This document shows, piece by piece, positions 18,056-39,810 of a stretch of DNA of 40,336 nt. Source of the stretch: a virus. Its lineage: Duplodnaviria > Caudoviricetes. The notes beneath the pieces are model-generated. The model had not been told where the DNA came from and searched no databases. It saw only the letters and a program-made list of their open reading frames with translations. The DNA is taken from positions 1 through 40,336 of IMG/VR virus record IMGVR_UViG_3300048563_000113. One strand, 5' to 3'. Positions within the stretch are counted from its first letter, which is position 1; the number at the start of each line of letters is the position of its first letter. The position numbers and the translations under genes were made by a program.

Positions 18056-19153
18056 TTACTTGGTGACCGCACGAACGGCGGCGATGTAGTCGGTGCCCGG
18101 GTGGGCGGCCTGGTAGTCGAGCGCCTTGCGGTGCACGGCCATGCCGTCGCTGTCGACCGCCATGCCGGACGGCGCGGCGAACTCGGCGGTGGCGGCACCG
18201 TCTCCGGCGCGCGCCTTGGTGGCGGCCTCGGCGAACTCGACCTGCACGGGCAGCGCGGCGAGGAACTCCTTGAAGGCCTCGGCGAGCGGCTTCTTGCCAT
18301 CCCCCTCGCCGAACTCGACCGGCGCCTCCGCCAGCGCATCGAGCGCGGCCACGGCCACGTCGCGCTGGGCCGGGGTGAGGCGGCCGGCGGTCACCTGCTC
18401 CTCCGCGAAGGAGGCGTGTCCGGCGTGGCGCGCCGCAGCAGCGGCCGTCTTGTCGCGGGCGGTGGATTCGGCCAGTTGGCTCTTGAGCTGGGCGTTCTCG
18501 GCCTCCAGCGCGGCTTTTTGTTCAGGGGTCACTACGGCCTCCTTGCGGGTTGGTTCGGAGAAAGCGGACATCGGCTGGCTTTCGGCGCGGGCGGCGTCTT
18601 CGAGCGTGCCGATGGAGTAGTCGGGGATGACGGTGTCGGCCTTCTCCAGGCCGAACTGGGCGATAAGGAAATCGCGCATGCGCCGCCACAGACCGGCGTT
18701 CTGCTGCGCGGCCCAGTCGGAAAACTCGACGACGCCTTCCTCGCTCGCGGCGAATTCCGGCGAGCGCAGGCCCTTGACGGCCGGCGGCACGGCGCCAAGG
18801 AAGCCGACGTGGCGCAGGTACCACACGCCGGGCACGGGGTTCTGCGGCGAGGTTGGCGAGAAGAAACTGGCGGAGACTTTTTTGAAGCGACCGGCGGCGA
18901 CCATCTCGGCGAAGGCCGGCTCGACCTGGTGCGGGGCCGCCTCCAGGGCGCCGGCGAAGGCGACCGACTTCACCCAGCCGTAGGCGGGGGCGTCGAGTTT
19001 CGGGTGGCCGACGACGATGGGCGCTTCGTGCTTGGCGGGATCGTAGGCGGCGGCGCAGGCGGAGAGATCGGCTTCGGTGAAGTCGAGCGCGTCGCCCGAC
19101 ATGGCAACGTGCCGGCCGGGCCGGAAAATCTGAATCGGTTTCGGATCGCTCAT
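18056..19153 (-). CDS. Head maturation protease/scaffold (Mu gpI-like)
   Basis: IQIFRPGRH...HEAPIVVGHP...PAYGWV...YLRHVGFLGAVPPAVKGL. Confidence 0.9.
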   Translation of the reverse strand: MSDPKPIQIFRPGRHVAMSGDALDFTEADLSACAAAYDPAKHEAPIVVGHPKLDAPAYGWVKSVAFAGALEAAPHQVEPAFAEMVAAGRFKKVSASFFSPTSPQNPVPGVWYLRHVGFLGAVPPAVKGLRSPEFAASEEGVVEFSDWAAQQNAGLWRRMRDFLIAQFGLEKADTVIPDYSIGTLEDAARAESQPMSAFSEPTRKEAVVTPEQKAALEAENAQLKSQLAESTARDKTAAAAARHAGHASFAEEQVTAGRLTPAQRDVAVAALDALAEAPVEFGEGDGKKPLAEAFKEFLAALPVQVEFAEAATKARAGDGAATAEFAAPSGMAVDSDGMAVHRKALDYQAAHPGTDYIAAVRAVTK

Positions 19154-19161
19154 GGCCCGGC

Positions 19162-19212
19162 ATGCTGCCGGGCGCGCGCGGGATCGGTGAGGGGGAAGGG
19201 GTTCGGGGGTTA
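19162..19212 (-). promoter_or_regulatory. Late promoter (head operon) with Mor/C-type activator box
   Basis: TAACCCCCGAACCCCTTCCCCCT, 22 nt, then CAGCAT; the ATG follows 8 nt later. Confidence 0.7.
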
Positions 19213-19929
19213 GCGGAGAGTGGTCTTGCCGAGCTTGCCGGGAGTGAGCAGTGCGTCTTCCGGCACGTAGGGCATAGCCGCCACGGCCCTCTCGGCAACC
19301 CGGTTCATGGCGGCATTGTAATCGCTCGCGGCCTGGTCGAGCGCGGCGCGCGCCGTCTGCGCTTCGGCGACCAGGTTTTCCGCAACACCCGTCTGGATCG
19401 AGGCGGCACCGGAGGCGCCGAGAGCGGAAACGTAGGCAGCGTCTCCATCGCGGCCGCGGGCGATGCTATCGCGTTCGCGCTCCATGACGCCGACCGAACG
19501 CTGGGCGGCGCCCAGCATGCGGTTGGCGCCGACGGTGGCCGCGTTAAAAACGGCGCGGCGGCGCAACATGTTTTGCACCTCTCGCAGAGCGGTTTCGGTT
19601 GCGTCGAGATAGCCCGCCACCGCGCTCATGCGCGCCGCGTTGCGCGGCGCCCCGGTCATCCGGAGCCGCAGTCTCATCTGGCCCACCTCGGCGGCATGGC
19701 TGGCCGCCTTGGCGATCAAATCGCCCTGGGTAATGCCCTTGTCGTCGGAGAAATAGCCGACCGCATCCGACAATCGTTCGGTCACCTCGCGTGTCACGCT
19801 TTCGGCCAGTTTCGCTTCGGCGCGGTCCTCCAGGTACCAGTTGCCGGCGTAAAGCAGCCCCGCCACGGCAAGCGCGGCGGGAACGAGCCACTTCAGTCGG
19901 GCAAGCCAGTCGTCCACGGGCGGGAACAT
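19210..19929 (-). CDS. Accessory membrane-anchored helical protein (moron)
   Basis: N-terminal TM segment (WLVPAALAVAGLLYAGNWY) then a long Ala-rich helical region; start is 19929 (ATG) or 19917 (GTG). Confidence 0.75.
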   Translation of the reverse strand: MFPPVDDWLARLKWLVPAALAVAGLLYAGNWYLEDRAEAKLAESVTREVTERLSDAVGYFSDDKGITQGDLIAKAASHAAEVGQMRLRLRMTGAPRNAARMSAVAGYLDATETALREVQNMLRRRAVFNAATVGANRMLGAAQRSVGVMERERDSIARGRDGDAAYVSALGASGAASIQTGVAENLVAEAQTARAALDQAASDYNAAMNRVAERAVAAMPYVPEDALLTPGKLGKTTLR

Positions 19930-19976
19930 TACACGCCTAAAGCTCACTTGACAACGCCATGAGGTCCGCGCAGAAT
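19926..19976. promoter_or_regulatory. Overlapping divergent sigma70 promoters
   Basis: + strand TTGACA(19948-53), 17 nt, CAGAAT(19971-76); - strand TTGTCA(19954-49), 17 nt, TAATGT(19931-26). Confidence 0.7.
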
Positions 19977-20031
19977 CGGCGGTACTGAAACCCAAGGCGG
20001 AAGCCGCGCCCGATAGTCACGCGGCGTCTGC

Positions 20032-20058
20032 CGCCCTCGCAAGAGGGCGTTCGTTTTT
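20032..20058 (+). terminator. Leader attenuator/terminator
   Basis: CGCCCTC-GCAA-GAGGGCG followed by TTCGTTTTT. Confidence 0.65.
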
Positions 20059-20059
20059 C

Positions 20060-20140
20060 GGCGCGCCGAGAGCGGGAAATAAAATACCCTTCGGGGGAAT
20101 ACCCGCCGAGCCCCTTGGGGCTCAGTTGAGACGTGCCACC
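20060..20140 (+). ncRNA. C4/CI-type phage antisense RNA
   Basis: Closing stem GGCGCG/CGTGCC; arm GCGGG...CCC-TTCG-GGG...CCCGC; segment CCTTGGG-GC-TCAGT complementary to flanking ACTGAAA(C/A)CCAAGG sites at 19984-19997 and 20148-20161. Confidence 0.7.
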
Positions 20141-20169
20141 CTTCAAAACTGAAAACCAAGGAGATCATC

Positions 20170-20421
20170 ATGGCTACAGTCTCATCCTTTGCCCGCCCGT
20201 CGGGCGACAATACCCGTCTCAACGCCCTCGCCGAAAAGACCACCGCCGCCGCCTCGCGCATCACAAGCCTGGCGCTGGCCGCCAACTGCGTTCTGACCCG
20301 CTCGTCACTCGCCGACGCCGGCGACCGTGAAACCGTGGCGCTGGACCTGATCGAGACCATCAAGACGCTTGCCGGCGACGCGGAGAGTGCTGCTGAAAAA
20401 GCGCTGGAGCCGCAGCCATGA
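20170..20421 (+). CDS. Small helical protein of unknown function (83 aa)
   Basis: AAGGAG RBS overlapping the downstream antisense target site. Confidence 0.75.
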   Translation: MATVSSFARPSGDNTRLNALAEKTTAAASRITSLALAANCVLTRSSLADAGDRETVALDLIETIKTLAGDAESAAEKALEPQP

Positions 20422-20579
20422 GGGCGGCCACCGTGATCCGGATGCTTTCGGGCATCATCGCCCTCCTGCACGCGGCCGTGCTGGCCGCCCCGGCCCCGCG
20501 GGCGACGGCGGCAGTGTTGAGAGCACTGGCCGCCGAAGCGCAGCGCGTGGCGGCGAAACTGGAAAGGAGCATGTCATGA
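20418..20579 (+). CDS. Small hydrophobic protein (53 aa, not in the ORF track)
   Basis: ATGA overlaps at both ends; MRAATVIRMLSGIIALLHAAVLAAPAP... Confidence 0.55.
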   Translation: MRAATVIRMLSGIIALLHAAVLAAPAPRATAAVLRALAAEAQRVAAKLERSMS

Positions 20580-20836
20580 CCGATAAGAAACTGGAGAGAT
20601 TGTCACCGCGCGAAAAGGCTGCGGCTCATCCCAAATCCGTAAAGCTTGCCGTCGCCGCCTATTGCTATCACGTATGCAACGGCGAAGAGTCAGATAACTC
20701 GCACAAGGTAAAAGTACTGGTCAAGGAGTGCGTGCAGGAGAACTGCCCTCTTTGGCCGCACCGATCCTGGCGGAAAATCACCGGCGGAAATGTGGGGAAA
20801 AACCACTGGCGGGCAAAGTCGCCAAATACCCCCTGA
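20576..20836 (+). CDS. Small basic Cys-rich (likely Zn-binding) protein (86 aa)
   Basis: AAGGAG RBS; AVAAYCYHVC...VKECVQENCPLWPHR. Confidence 0.75.
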   Translation: MTDKKLERLSPREKAAAHPKSVKLAVAAYCYHVCNGEESDNSHKVKVLVKECVQENCPLWPHRSWRKITGGNVGKNHWRAKSPNTP

Positions 20837-20956
20837 GCGCATCGCCGCTTACTCGCCGTTAATTCGGCGTTAAAAACTCGCTGGCGCGGCGATCGCAAGG
20901 GTGCGCGCGGGGTAGGCGCTACCAGCCCCCCCCAAACCGCACCAGAGGCCTGTAAT

Positions 20957-20990
20957 GCGGCCAGGCAGAAATGCCCGGCCGCTTCTTTTT
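20957..20990 (+). terminator. Intrinsic terminator closing the + strand moron transcript
   Basis: GCGGCCAGGCA-GAAA-TGCCCGGCCGC-TTCTTTTT. Confidence 0.75.
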
Positions 20991-27827: not shown

Positions 27828-28399
27828 TCGGCATCCTCCAGAATGCAGCCTGGGCGCGGCAGCATGTCGGCGCGCAGCCACGCGGCCACGTTGAATCCGG
27901 GACAGGTCTTGAGCCACTCATGGGGCTCGACCGTGCCGTCGCCGTCGACGTCCGGCGAGAGGTCGCGGTGGCCGGCGACGCGAGCGCCGGGGAATTCCTT
28001 TTTCAGGCGCTCGACCAGCGCGGCGAGCGCGCTCCATTGCGCCCGGGAAAACTTGTCGGTGCCGACGACGCAGATGCCGACGGAGCGGCGGTTATGACCG
28101 GCGACGTGAGCGCCGATCTCGACAAGATGGCGGCCGGTGGCGATGGCGCCATTCGTGTAGATGACGAAGTGGTAGCCGATGCTGCCGAGCTGGGAATTCT
28201 GCCGGGCGCGCCACTCGCCCTGGCGCTTGAAACCGCGCAGCGCGTGCCAGTGGTCAATGTCGAGCGTGGACACCCAGCGGCCGTTCGGCGTGGCCGAACA
28301 ATGAACGACGATGAGATCGACGCGCCGGCCGTTCGCAGGTGCGATCTCCCCCCTTTGCAAAAGGGGGGCCGGTGGGGATTTTGCGGCGGCGCCAGGCAT
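27824..28399 (-). CDS. Endolysin, N-acetylmuramoyl-L-alanine amidase (T7 lysozyme-like)
   Basis: IVVHCSAT...IGYHFVI...GAHVAGHN..SVGIC...GHRDLSPD...KTCPGF. Confidence 0.92.
   Translation of the reverse strand: MPGAAAKSPPAPLLQRGEIAPANGRRVDLIVVHCSATPNGRWVSTLDIDHWHALRGFKRQGEWRARQNSQLGSIGYHFVIYTNGAIATGRHLVEIGAHVAGHNRRSVGICVVGTDKFSRAQWSALAALVERLKKEFPGARVAGHRDLSPDVDGDGTVEPHEWLKTCPGFNVAAWLRADMLPRPGCILEDAE
28346..28382. repeat. In-frame palindromic repeat, copy 2 (endolysin N-terminus)
   Basis: CTCCCCCCTTTGCAAAAGGGGGGCCGGTGGGGATTTT. Confidence 0.65.
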
Positions 28400-39099: not shown

Positions 39100-39810
39100 A
39101 TGAAAACTTTTGCCGATCGCCTACGTCAAGTTATCGGTGACGAGGACTACACGCCTTGGGCGCAAGTGCGTGGCTTGTCGCCTTCTACGGTCGAGGGGTG
39201 GCTGAACAAAGGGCTTGCCCCCTATAAGAAGTCACTGGGGAAGCTGGTGGCCGCTACGGGCATTCCCGTCGAGTGGTGGGAGAGCGGAGAAGGTGAGCCG
39301 CCGGTCAATCAAGCCTTGAAGGCGATGGCTGGATTCAGCGGAGAACACAAGCCGTCATCGCATCGCGTAGTGGAACCTCGCGCGGGATATGTGGCCATTC
39401 CTCTCTATAACGGTGTGCGGGCTGCAGCCGGCGCAGGAGCCATCGTGGCCCACGAGGTGTCAGACGACGCGCTCATGTTCCAAGAGGAGTGGGTTCGCTT
39501 CGAGCTGGGCGCGCGGCCGCAGGATCTCTACCTCATCCGCGTCGCTGGCGATTCGATGGAGCCGACGCTGCGATCCGGTGACGCAATCCTGGTAGATCGC
39601 CGCGCCACGCGCCCTGACAGGGAGGGCGTCTATATCATGCGCATGAACAACATGCTGCTGGTAAAGCGCCTGCAGGCCCTACCTGGTGGCCGAGTTCGCG
39701 TCACCAGCGACAACCCGGCCTTCGCACCTTTCGACGTTGCCGTGCCCGACCTGCAGGGCGACGATATCGCCATCATCGGCCGCGTCGTCTGGGTCGGTCG
39801 CAGGCTTTGA
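39097..39810 (+). CDS. Prophage repressor (HTH plus S24 LexA/CI autopeptidase)
   Basis: N-terminal HTH; AAAGAG cleavage loop, GDSMEP serine, VKRL lysine, IIGRVVW; divergent from ner. Confidence 0.92.
   Translation: MMKTFADRLRQVIGDEDYTPWAQVRGLSPSTVEGWLNKGLAPYKKSLGKLVAATGIPVEWWESGEGEPPVNQALKAMAGFSGEHKPSSHRVVEPRAGYVAIPLYNGVRAAAGAGAIVAHEVSDDALMFQEEWVRFELGARPQDLYLIRVAGDSMEPTLRSGDAILVDRRATRPDREGVYIMRMNNMLLVKRLQALPGGRVRVTSDNPAFAPFDVAVPDLQGDDIAIIGRVVWVGRRL

What the first reader, a model, noticed from the sequence alone, without database searches (positions are those of the whole stretch)
19948..20990. Best candidate system: C4/CI-type antisense-RNA-gated operon of three unknown small proteins at the gpG-protease locus
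Seen: a self-contained unit opposing the late genes. It comprises a sigma70 promoter, target site 1 (ACTGAAACCCAAGG, 19984-97), a hairpin and attenuator (20032-58), an 80-nt multi-stem RNA carrying CCTTGGG-GC-TCAGT, target site 2 (ACTGAAAACCAAGG, 20148-61) overlapping the first RBS, three coupled ORFs (83, 53 and 86 aa; the last Cys-rich) and a terminator. Established: P1 C4 and P4 CI RNAs repress their own operons via flanking targets, allowing a burst of expression on entry into naive cells; Pseudomonas D3112-like phages keep anti-CRISPR genes between gpG and the protease gene, under Aca control. Inference: an RNA-repressed rather than Aca-repressed early counter-defence cassette, or a secondary immunity module with non-canonical cargo. 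I see no Ant, KilA or Aca domain.
Basis: partly seen in the sequence, partly recalled or inferred. Interest (0 to 1): 0.8.

Follow-up and report, generated by a model that had tools for sequence, protein, structure and literature searches.

The report
RNA-locked Mu-phage cassette without antirepressor
A Mu-like prophage carries a small operon whose own structured RNA matches two sites on the same transcript and likely switches it off after a brief burst, as phage P1's c4 RNA does; relatives mostly lock an antirepressor gene this way, but this copy has none and holds three small proteins of families nobody has characterised.

Summary
The anatomy is confirmed. The RNA (20060-~20141) is not C4, CI or IsrK; it is a divergent sRNA-Xcc1-class RNA (Rfam RF02221, 42.2 bits, cut-off 53, E 9.6e-6). 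Its variable loop co-varies with both flanking sites: in 86 family RNAs a complement of at least 7 nt occurs upstream in 61 and downstream in 51, against 8% and 4% for mismatched pairs; in the close sub-clade (29 loci, 27 loop types) at least 6 nt in 25 and 28. So it likely works like c4. The family usually gates antirepressor genes (62 of 74 first ORFs). In the sub-clade, mostly Mu-like phages, 16 of 28 cassettes have one and 12 do not, while sharing the same small genes. The window is likely an antirepressor-deleted secondary-immunity operon. All three ORFs belong to conserved but unannotated families; nothing supports anti-CRISPR activity beyond location. The scan has already reported the c4-like reading of sRNA-Xcc1 on other DNA. 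New here: the antirepressor-free Mu-like lineage and its cargo pool.

The parts
19948..19976 (+). sigma70-type promoter (TTGACA-17-CAGAAT); transcript would start at about 19983-84, so site 1 is its 5' end
   Evidence: -35 kept in L001, L218 and L190
19984..19997 (+). target site 1: ACU box, A-rich spacer, loop complement CCCAAGG, followed by the family-wide GCGG
   Evidence: covariation; (G/A)CGG follows the site in 48 of 61
19996..20032 (+). leader hairpin; its inner stem changes on both sides in L218, L190, L213 and L288; its outer stem abuts or overlaps the terminator base
20032..20058 (+). leader intrinsic terminator / attenuator
20060..20141 (+). sRNA-Xcc1-class antisense RNA, three-way junction; specificity hairpin 20108-20123 (loop CUUG), constant single-stranded AGUUGA 20124-29, closing stem followed by ACCC
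   Evidence: Rfam RF02221 42.2 bits, E 9.6e-6; family-type fold within 0.4 kcal/mol of the MFE
20148..20163 (+). target site 2, overlapping the Shine-Dalgarno of ORF1
20170..20421 (+). ORF1, 83 aa, predicted two-helix hairpin; family found next to Bro-N, Rha or P22-Ant-type genes in related cassettes
   Evidence: (76 hits)
20418..20579 (+). ORF2, 53 aa, hydrophobic alanine-rich peptide under purifying selection
   Evidence: 13 synonymous vs 4 non-synonymous codon changes against L001; 6 homologues; also in L341
20576..20836 (+). ORF3, 86 aa, four invariant cysteines (C30, C34, C52, C57), likely zinc-binding, helical; single and duplicated-domain forms; also occurs without the RNA
   Evidence: (114 hits)
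20957..20990 (+). end terminator directly past the gpG stop codon; would shield gpG from antisense read-through
   Evidence: window and L001
20990..21511 (-). context: gpG-type virion morphogenesis gene
   Evidence: PF05069 E 5e-25
19210..19926 (-). context: divergent 238-aa accessory gene, kept in sister phage L126 that lacks the cassette
18056..19153 (-). context: head protease/scaffold-type gene (assigned by synteny between gpG and the capsid genes; no Pfam hit)

Best explanation
This is likely a c4-type secondary-immunity operon that has lost its antirepressor gene: an sRNA-Xcc1-class RNA, complementary to two sites on its own transcript, would shut the operon off once it accumulates. In a newly infected cell the host-type promoter would fire at once, part of the transcription would pass the leader terminator, and ORF1-3 would be made in a short burst. 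The ~80-nt RNA would be cut out of the same transcript (RNase P likely, from its tRNA-like stem plus NCC end) and would build up. Its loop and AGUU strand would then pair with site 2, blocking the ORF1 ribosome-binding site and, through coupling, ORF2-3, and with site 1, probably favouring early termination. The lysogen would so keep the cargo off and silence the same operon on incoming phages of the same loop type. The cargo is most likely the accessory set of this antirepressor operon, acting at entry on the lysis/lysogeny decision or on host physiology, with ORF1 the gene that needs the lock and ORF3 a tolerated passenger. Shown: anatomy, covariation, cargo families and their mixing. Inferred: processing, direction of control, timing, cargo role.
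For: Covariation: 61 of 86 upstream and 51 of 86 downstream with at least 7 nt, against 8.0% and 4.4% for mismatched pairs; observed means 6.93 and 6.57 exceed the best of 10,000 permutations, 5.70 and 5.23. Sub-clade: 25 of 29 and 28 of 29 with at least 6 nt, against 7.6% and 5.3%. Sister phage L001 changes the loop and both sites together. NCC(A/C) follows the closing stem in 66 of the 82 RNAs where a stem was found, of 86; C4 and CI are RNase P substrates (PMC5499578, passages). The founding Xcc RNA is a discrete 88-nt species by Northern blot and RACE (PMC2996969, passages). Antirepressor-type domains in 62 of 74 first ORFs. The same small genes occur with and without the antirepressor: Bro-N+ORF1 (L218, L301), Rha+ORF1 (L190, L169), ORF1+P22-Ant-type (L319, L320) against ORF1-first with none seen (window, L213, L322); Bro-N+X+Y (L312, L327) against X+Y (L306); L001 and L190 share one loop type, only L190 has Rha. 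ORF3 stands without the RNA in L175, L250, L287, L289, L293 and L295.
Against: No direct evidence of a processed RNA, of repression or of translation here. The window RNA is below Rfam's cut-off, and its site 2 keeps only AACU of the UCAACU box seen in several relatives. Blocking site 1 adds just one base pair to the window's terminator at equilibrium, and the family-wide gain in terminator pairing (39 of 58 up, 1 down) is not specific to the cognate 5' segment (cognate 0.47 vs shuffled 0.43, p 0.41), so the attenuation step is unproven. The precursor can also pair its loop with either site in cis. IsrK, a relative in logic, activates rather than represses (PMC4825925, passages). Homologues are related by descent, so the permutation counts overstate independence. 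The cargo role rests on gene neighbourhood only.
Confidence: 0.68

Rival explanations
1. Same RNA lock, but the cargo is an early counter-defence kit (anti-CRISPR or against other host defences), with the RNA doing the job that Aca1 does in Pseudomonas Mu-like phages.
For: Slot between gene G and the protease gene, the known acr position (PMC3993853, passages); small, mixed-and-matched cargo with a recurring last gene; own promoter; dispensable in L126.
Against: No match of ORF1-3 in Pfam, PHROGs, NCBIfam or PADLOC or to PDB sequences. The same genes travel with antirepressors. The slot takes inserts of 39 to 2881 bp of very different content in 81 related loci. The recurring last gene has no HTH hit and also occurs alone.
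Confidence: 0.13
2. The structure acts mainly in cis, or as in IsrK: the precursor folds its loop onto site 2 and hides the ribosome-binding site, and the free RNA or site 1 acts as an activator or decoy rather than a repressor.
For: The MFE of 20055-20175 pairs the antisense arm with site 2, and that of 19982-20175 pairs it with site 1; IsrK precedent.
Against: The specificity hairpin has pair probability about 0.9 in the free RNA; the tRNA-like end and the discrete Xcc RNA argue for a stable trans-acting species; the usual cargo, antirepressors, must be off in a lysogen.
Confidence: 0.1
3. A decaying remnant: after loss of the antirepressor the cargo has no selected function and the RNA survives only to silence antirepressor operons of incoming phages of the same loop type.
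For: The cassette is rare (about 5 distinct cases in 157 protease loci) and absent from L126; L001 and L190 share a loop type across antirepressor-free and Rha-bearing cassettes.
Against: ORF2 and ORF3 show third-position-biased change against L001; 12 of 28 sub-clade cassettes are antirepressor-free with intact frames, and both sites still track the loop.
Confidence: 0.09

Closest known systems
sRNA-Xcc1 (Rfam RF02221)
   Same: Full-length model match, conserved internal-loop core and three-way fold; close relatives score 53.6-65.2 bits, over the cut-off.
   Different: Window copy scores 42.2 bits, under the cut-off of 53. The papers I could read treat the family as a trans-acting or virulence-linked sRNA (PMC12189769, 10.1101/2025.06.18.660453, PMC7313666, passages); none of those passages describes self-targets.
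Phage P1/P7 c4 antisense RNA and immI operon (Rfam RF01695)
   Same: RNA co-transcribed ahead of the genes it controls, two-part antisense, site at the ribosome-binding site, specificity types giving heteroimmunity (PMC12197685, passages).
   Different: Different RNA scaffold (no C4, c4-2 or c4-a1b1 match at E up to 10); no ant or icd-type gene detected in the window; sits in a transposable phage.
Satellite phage P4 CI RNA; Gifsy-1 IsrK
   Same: Processed RNA with complementary sites upstream and downstream on its own transcript (PMC4825925, passages).
   Different: No IsrK model match; here the leader holds an intrinsic terminator; IsrK activates its operon.
acr-aca1 locus of Pseudomonas D3112/JBD30-like Mu phages
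   Same: Between gene G and the protease gene; small interchangeable genes with a recurring last gene (PMC3993853).
   Different: Opposite strand to the late genes (acr loci being on the late strand is recalled, not checked); RNA control; no Acr or Aca similarity found.

Membership tests
sRNA-Xcc1 (RF02221) | Covariance-model score at or above the gathering cut-off (53 bits) | tested here: not met
   42.2 bits, E 9.6e-6, model 1-87 of 87; filed as a divergent relative, not a formal member
sRNA-Xcc1 (RF02221) | Conserved internal-loop core with CCC-N4-GGG hairpin, variable hairpin and closing stem | tested here: met
C4 / c4-2 / IsrK Rfam families | Match to the family covariance model | tested here: not met
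   no such family among 7 matches at E up to 10 or at gathering level
c4/CI-type antisense immunity switch (works-like) | RNA encoded in the leader of its own operon with complementary sites upstream and at the first RBS | tested here: met
c4/CI-type antisense immunity switch (works-like) | Specificity types: antisense loop and targets change together | tested here: met
   27 loop types in 29 loci, cognate matches far above mismatched pairs
c4/CI-type antisense immunity switch (works-like) | RNase P processing to a stable RNA that represses in trans | not testable with these tools
   tRNA-like NCC(A/C) end in 66 of 82 and a discrete Xcc RNA are consistent; only contigs, no raw RNA reads, were available
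c4/CI-type antisense immunity switch (works-like) | Antisense binding promotes premature termination | tested here: inconclusive
   effect small in the window and not specific family-wide
P1 immI-type operon | Antirepressor gene (Ant, KilA-N, Bro-N, Rha, ORF6N) in the operon | tested here: not met
   none in the window; present in 16 of 28 sub-clade cassettes
acr-aca locus | Position between gene G and the protease gene of a Mu-like phage | tested here: met
acr-aca locus | HTH Aca repressor as last gene | tested here: inconclusive
   ORF3 has no Pfam HTH hit and is a four-cysteine helical protein; fold searches gave nothing usable
acr-aca locus | Cargo inhibits CRISPR-Cas | not testable with these tools
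   no sequence similarity to catalogued proteins; Acrs are often unique, so absence is uninformative

The most novel reading that the evidence does not exclude
A lineage of Mu-like phages has repurposed an antirepressor RNA lock, with dozens of specificity types, as an Aca-free timer for a pool of at least six new small-protein families in the anti-CRISPR slot. Some of them, including the window's ORFs, are entry-burst counter-defence proteins or a new kind of mini-antirepressor, so this RNA could serve as a search marker for such genes as aca genes did for Acrs.
Probability: 0.17. Interest if true: 0.82.

Novelty: new variant of a known kind. Interest (0 to 1): 0.5.

Why it matters
The c4/CI logic is known from P1 and P4. 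This case shows it built on an RNA family that the papers I could search treat as a bacterial virulence sRNA, and running in transposable phages with 27 loop types in 29 loci. It gives a ready set of orthogonal RNA-target pairs and a testable reinterpretation of sRNA-Xcc1 (already suggested by earlier notes of this scan). The specific addition is a sub-lineage where the lock persists without an antirepressor. That implies some small cargo gene itself needs burst-then-silence control, and points to several unannotated protein families worth testing for toxicity, prophage induction or counter-defence.

Tried and rejected
blastn of the cassette against GenBank phages and of the leader against plasmids: no match. 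My own RNA model R1 had only 7 base pairs and missed L169, which Rfam finds at 64.9 bits; Rfam in turn missed L190 and L296, so frequencies are lower bounds. Folds: ORF3 model (pLDDT 78) had no Foldseek match and best VIA Z 3.1; ORF1 model (pLDDT 82) matched only generic helical hairpins. ESM Atlas: ORF3 neighbours are unnamed viral clusters; for ORF1 the nearest named clusters were Derepression PF25738 (0.86, on 20% of members), XAC0095-like and DUF1484 (0.84), all under the 0.9 bar, and Pfam gave no such hit in 69 family members, so these stay leads. Complex prediction of ORF1 with the phage's own repressor returned no answer. Antiterminator-switch model: not specific against shuffled controls. 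Metatranscriptome contigs of 4 of 9 listed runs cover the cassette, one spanning 20020-20585, but the control stretch is covered too (X5 30 of 30 bins, X6 25 of 30), so DNA carry-over cannot be excluded and no RNA end can be read. A third ACT..CCAAGG site on the minus strand at 39167 is about what chance gives with 43 CCAAGG words in the window (my estimate). L296's first ORF is not detectably ORF1-like. Chen et al. 2011 on sRNA-Xcc1 is not held and the supplement of Weinberg et al. 2017 was unreadable; either could mention self-targets. Searches for a published c4-like role: 'sRNA-Xcc1', 'RF02221' and combined terms showed none in listings or passages read. No tree was built, so repeated loss versus gain of the antirepressor is not tested.

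Full report
Setting. The window is one provirus record, 78% complete, of a Mu-like phage: Mu transposase, portal, gpF, gpG and capsid hits, and a CI-like peptidase-domain repressor. The nearest genome loci are Rhodocyclaceae and other Betaproteobacteria, an ORF2 homologue is from a Rhodocyclaceae bin, and the stretch occurs in bioreactor metatranscriptome runs. The host is therefore inferred to be an environmental betaproteobacterium.

Observation. The promoter is the only consensus match in 2 kb (0.2 expected). The two target sites and the antisense stretch are each unique. The ORFs overlap by ATGA. ORF2 shows 13 synonymous against 4 non-synonymous codon changes relative to sister phage L001, and ORF3 differences fall 21/13/37 on codon positions 1/2/3. 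The end terminator is kept with changed sequence in L001. The pairing needs refining: the specificity hairpin has a 6-bp stem and a CUUG loop, followed by a constant single-stranded AGUUGA, so each site is an ACU box, a short A-rich spacer and the loop complement.

What the RNA is. Rfam gives nothing at gathering level. At E-value level the one significant match is sRNA-Xcc1, full length, 42.2 bits against a cut-off of 53; C4, c4-2 and IsrK do not appear. Relatives in the same slot score 48.8 (L001) and 53.6-65.2. I therefore call it sRNA-Xcc1-class, below cut-off.

Covariation, whole family. A pattern scan of viral contigs returned 120 of about 460 stretches. Of 122 matches, 84 were distinct with enough flank; with the window and L001 that makes 86. 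The variable arm has an exact complement of at least 7 nt upstream in 61 and downstream in 51, both in 41, against 8.0%, 4.4% and 1.0% for mismatched pairs; the means exceed all 10,000 permutations. The loci are related, so these are not independent events, but the loops differ widely.

Covariation, sub-clade. A pattern for the close sub-clade gave 27 metagenome and 14 viral stretches, 29 distinct. The test set was 28 of these plus L213; the window itself does not fit this pattern. It holds 27 loop types, with at least 6 nt cognate complement upstream in 25 of 29 and downstream in 28 of 29, against 7.6% and 5.3%. Exceptions exist: L302's downstream site mismatches, and L327's upstream site fits L312's RNA. 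L190 replaces the CCC/GGG hairpin by GGC/GCC, and L296 has a shortened RNA with matching sites seen by eye only. A closing stem was found in 82 of 86 RNAs and is followed by NCC(A/C) in 66, a tRNA-like end. C4 and CI are RNase P substrates (PMC5499578, passages). The Xcc RNA is a discrete 88-nt band (PMC2996969, passages).

Leader. The inner stem of the leader hairpin changes on both sides across relatives. Blocking site 1 lengthens the window's terminator by one pair and raises terminator pairing in 39 of 58 family leaders, but shuffled 5' segments behave like cognate ones. Antisense-driven attenuation is therefore plausible by analogy with P4 CI and unproven. Control at site 2 is the better-supported step.

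Usual cargo. First ORFs were called for 74 of the 84 RNAs, and 62 carry AntA, KilA-N, P22_AR, Bro-N, Rha or ORF6N domains. In the sub-clade, 18 of 29 loci show gpG or protease within the flank; of 28 with downstream sequence, 14 have Bro-N or P22_AR_N Pfam hits, 2 more are short or cut Bro-N-like starts, and 12 have none in the ORFs recovered (four of the 12 are loci already seen as L001, L288, L291 and L294).

The small genes are shared between both kinds. ORF1's family (76 hits; two-helix hairpin) follows Bro-N in L218 and L301, follows Rha in L190 and L169, precedes a P22-Ant-type gene in L319 and L320, and leads with none seen in the window, L213 and L322. L312 and L327 read Bro-N, X, Y where L306 reads X, Y. 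L001 and L190 share a loop type but only L190 has Rha. ORF3's family (114 hits, four invariant cysteines) ends the cassette in L001, L288, L291, L292, L294 and L296, has a duplicated form in L190, L303, L316, L322 and L341, and stands without the RNA, still antisense to the late genes, in L175, L250, L287, L289, L293 and L295. Sister phage L126 (85% protease identity, same divergent accessory gene) keeps TTGACA but lacks the cassette. The cassette is rare among protease-selected loci: my model found it in 3 of 80 viral loci (two are one phage) and 2 of 77 genome loci, and Rfam added L169 in 50 whole records searched of the 80.

Cargo function. No hit in Pfam, PHROGs, NCBIfam, PADLOC or PDB sequences, and no informative fold match. 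The G-protease junction is the acr position in Pseudomonas Mu-like phages (PMC3993853, passages), but in 81 related loci it ranges from 39 to 2881 bp with unrelated inserts, so position alone is weak.

Mechanism. Most likely: entry burst from a host-type promoter, excision and build-up of the RNA, then silencing at the ORF1 ribosome-binding site and perhaps at the leader, which would also silence incoming operons of the same loop type. The cargo is read as the accessory set of an antirepressor operon. Because ORF3 occurs unlocked, ORF1 (or the variable first gene) is the likelier reason for the lock. Anatomy, covariation and gene mixing are shown; processing, repression, timing and cargo role are inferred.

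Novelty. The logic is that of P1 c4 and P4 CI (PMC12197685 and PMC4825925, passages). I found no paper giving sRNA-Xcc1 this role (papers seen as listings or passages only; Chen 2011 and the Weinberg 2017 supplement not readable). Earlier notes of this scan made the same reading on other genomes, mostly ahead of antirepressors; none matched ORF3 or the Mu-slot wording. Verdict: real; a new variant of a known kind. The RNA switch is well supported, the antirepressor-free Mu-like lineage and its cargo pool are the new part, and anti-CRISPR function is possible but unsupported.

Noticed in passing
window 20836-20956: Non-coding stretch just past gpG with loosely conserved TTT(T)AACG-type words in related phages. 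In phage Mu the gyrase cut site, a terminator and a late promoter lie at this position. It may be a strong-gyrase-site equivalent; not tested.
   Followed up: partly
window 19210-19926 (-): 238-aa accessory gene with an N-terminal hydrophobic helix, 76-78% identical in L001 and L126, no family hit; it starts 22 bp from the cassette's -35 box.
   Followed up: partly
L310:567-1320 and L317:245-946: Same RNA lock on the gpG strand, gating a 131-138-aa unknown gene plus a short Mu gp27-like gene (PF11985).
   Followed up: no
L327 and L312 leaders: L327's upstream site fits L312's RNA loop rather than its own, and L312's fits the L317/L322 type; suggests leader recombination or cross-control between specificity types.
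   Followed up: no
L296:1340-1580: Shortened version of the RNA lacking the internal-loop core, still with matching upstream and RBS-side sites; missed by both models.
   Followed up: partly
L001, L288, L291, L294, L303, L306, L308, L312: A recurring 64-84-aa cargo group starting with a (V/I)IPFP-like motif and often ending in a short coiled-coil-like tail; no family hits.
   Followed up: partly
L092:279-640: Two RNA cassettes in tandem with different loops ahead of one Bro-N gene; Xylella carries five copies about 385 bp apart (PMC12189769, table passage).
   Followed up: no
window 28283-28307: One RNA-run contig (X5, depth 3) shows five clustered G-to-A differences; a single low-depth contig, may be error or another strain.
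   Followed up: no
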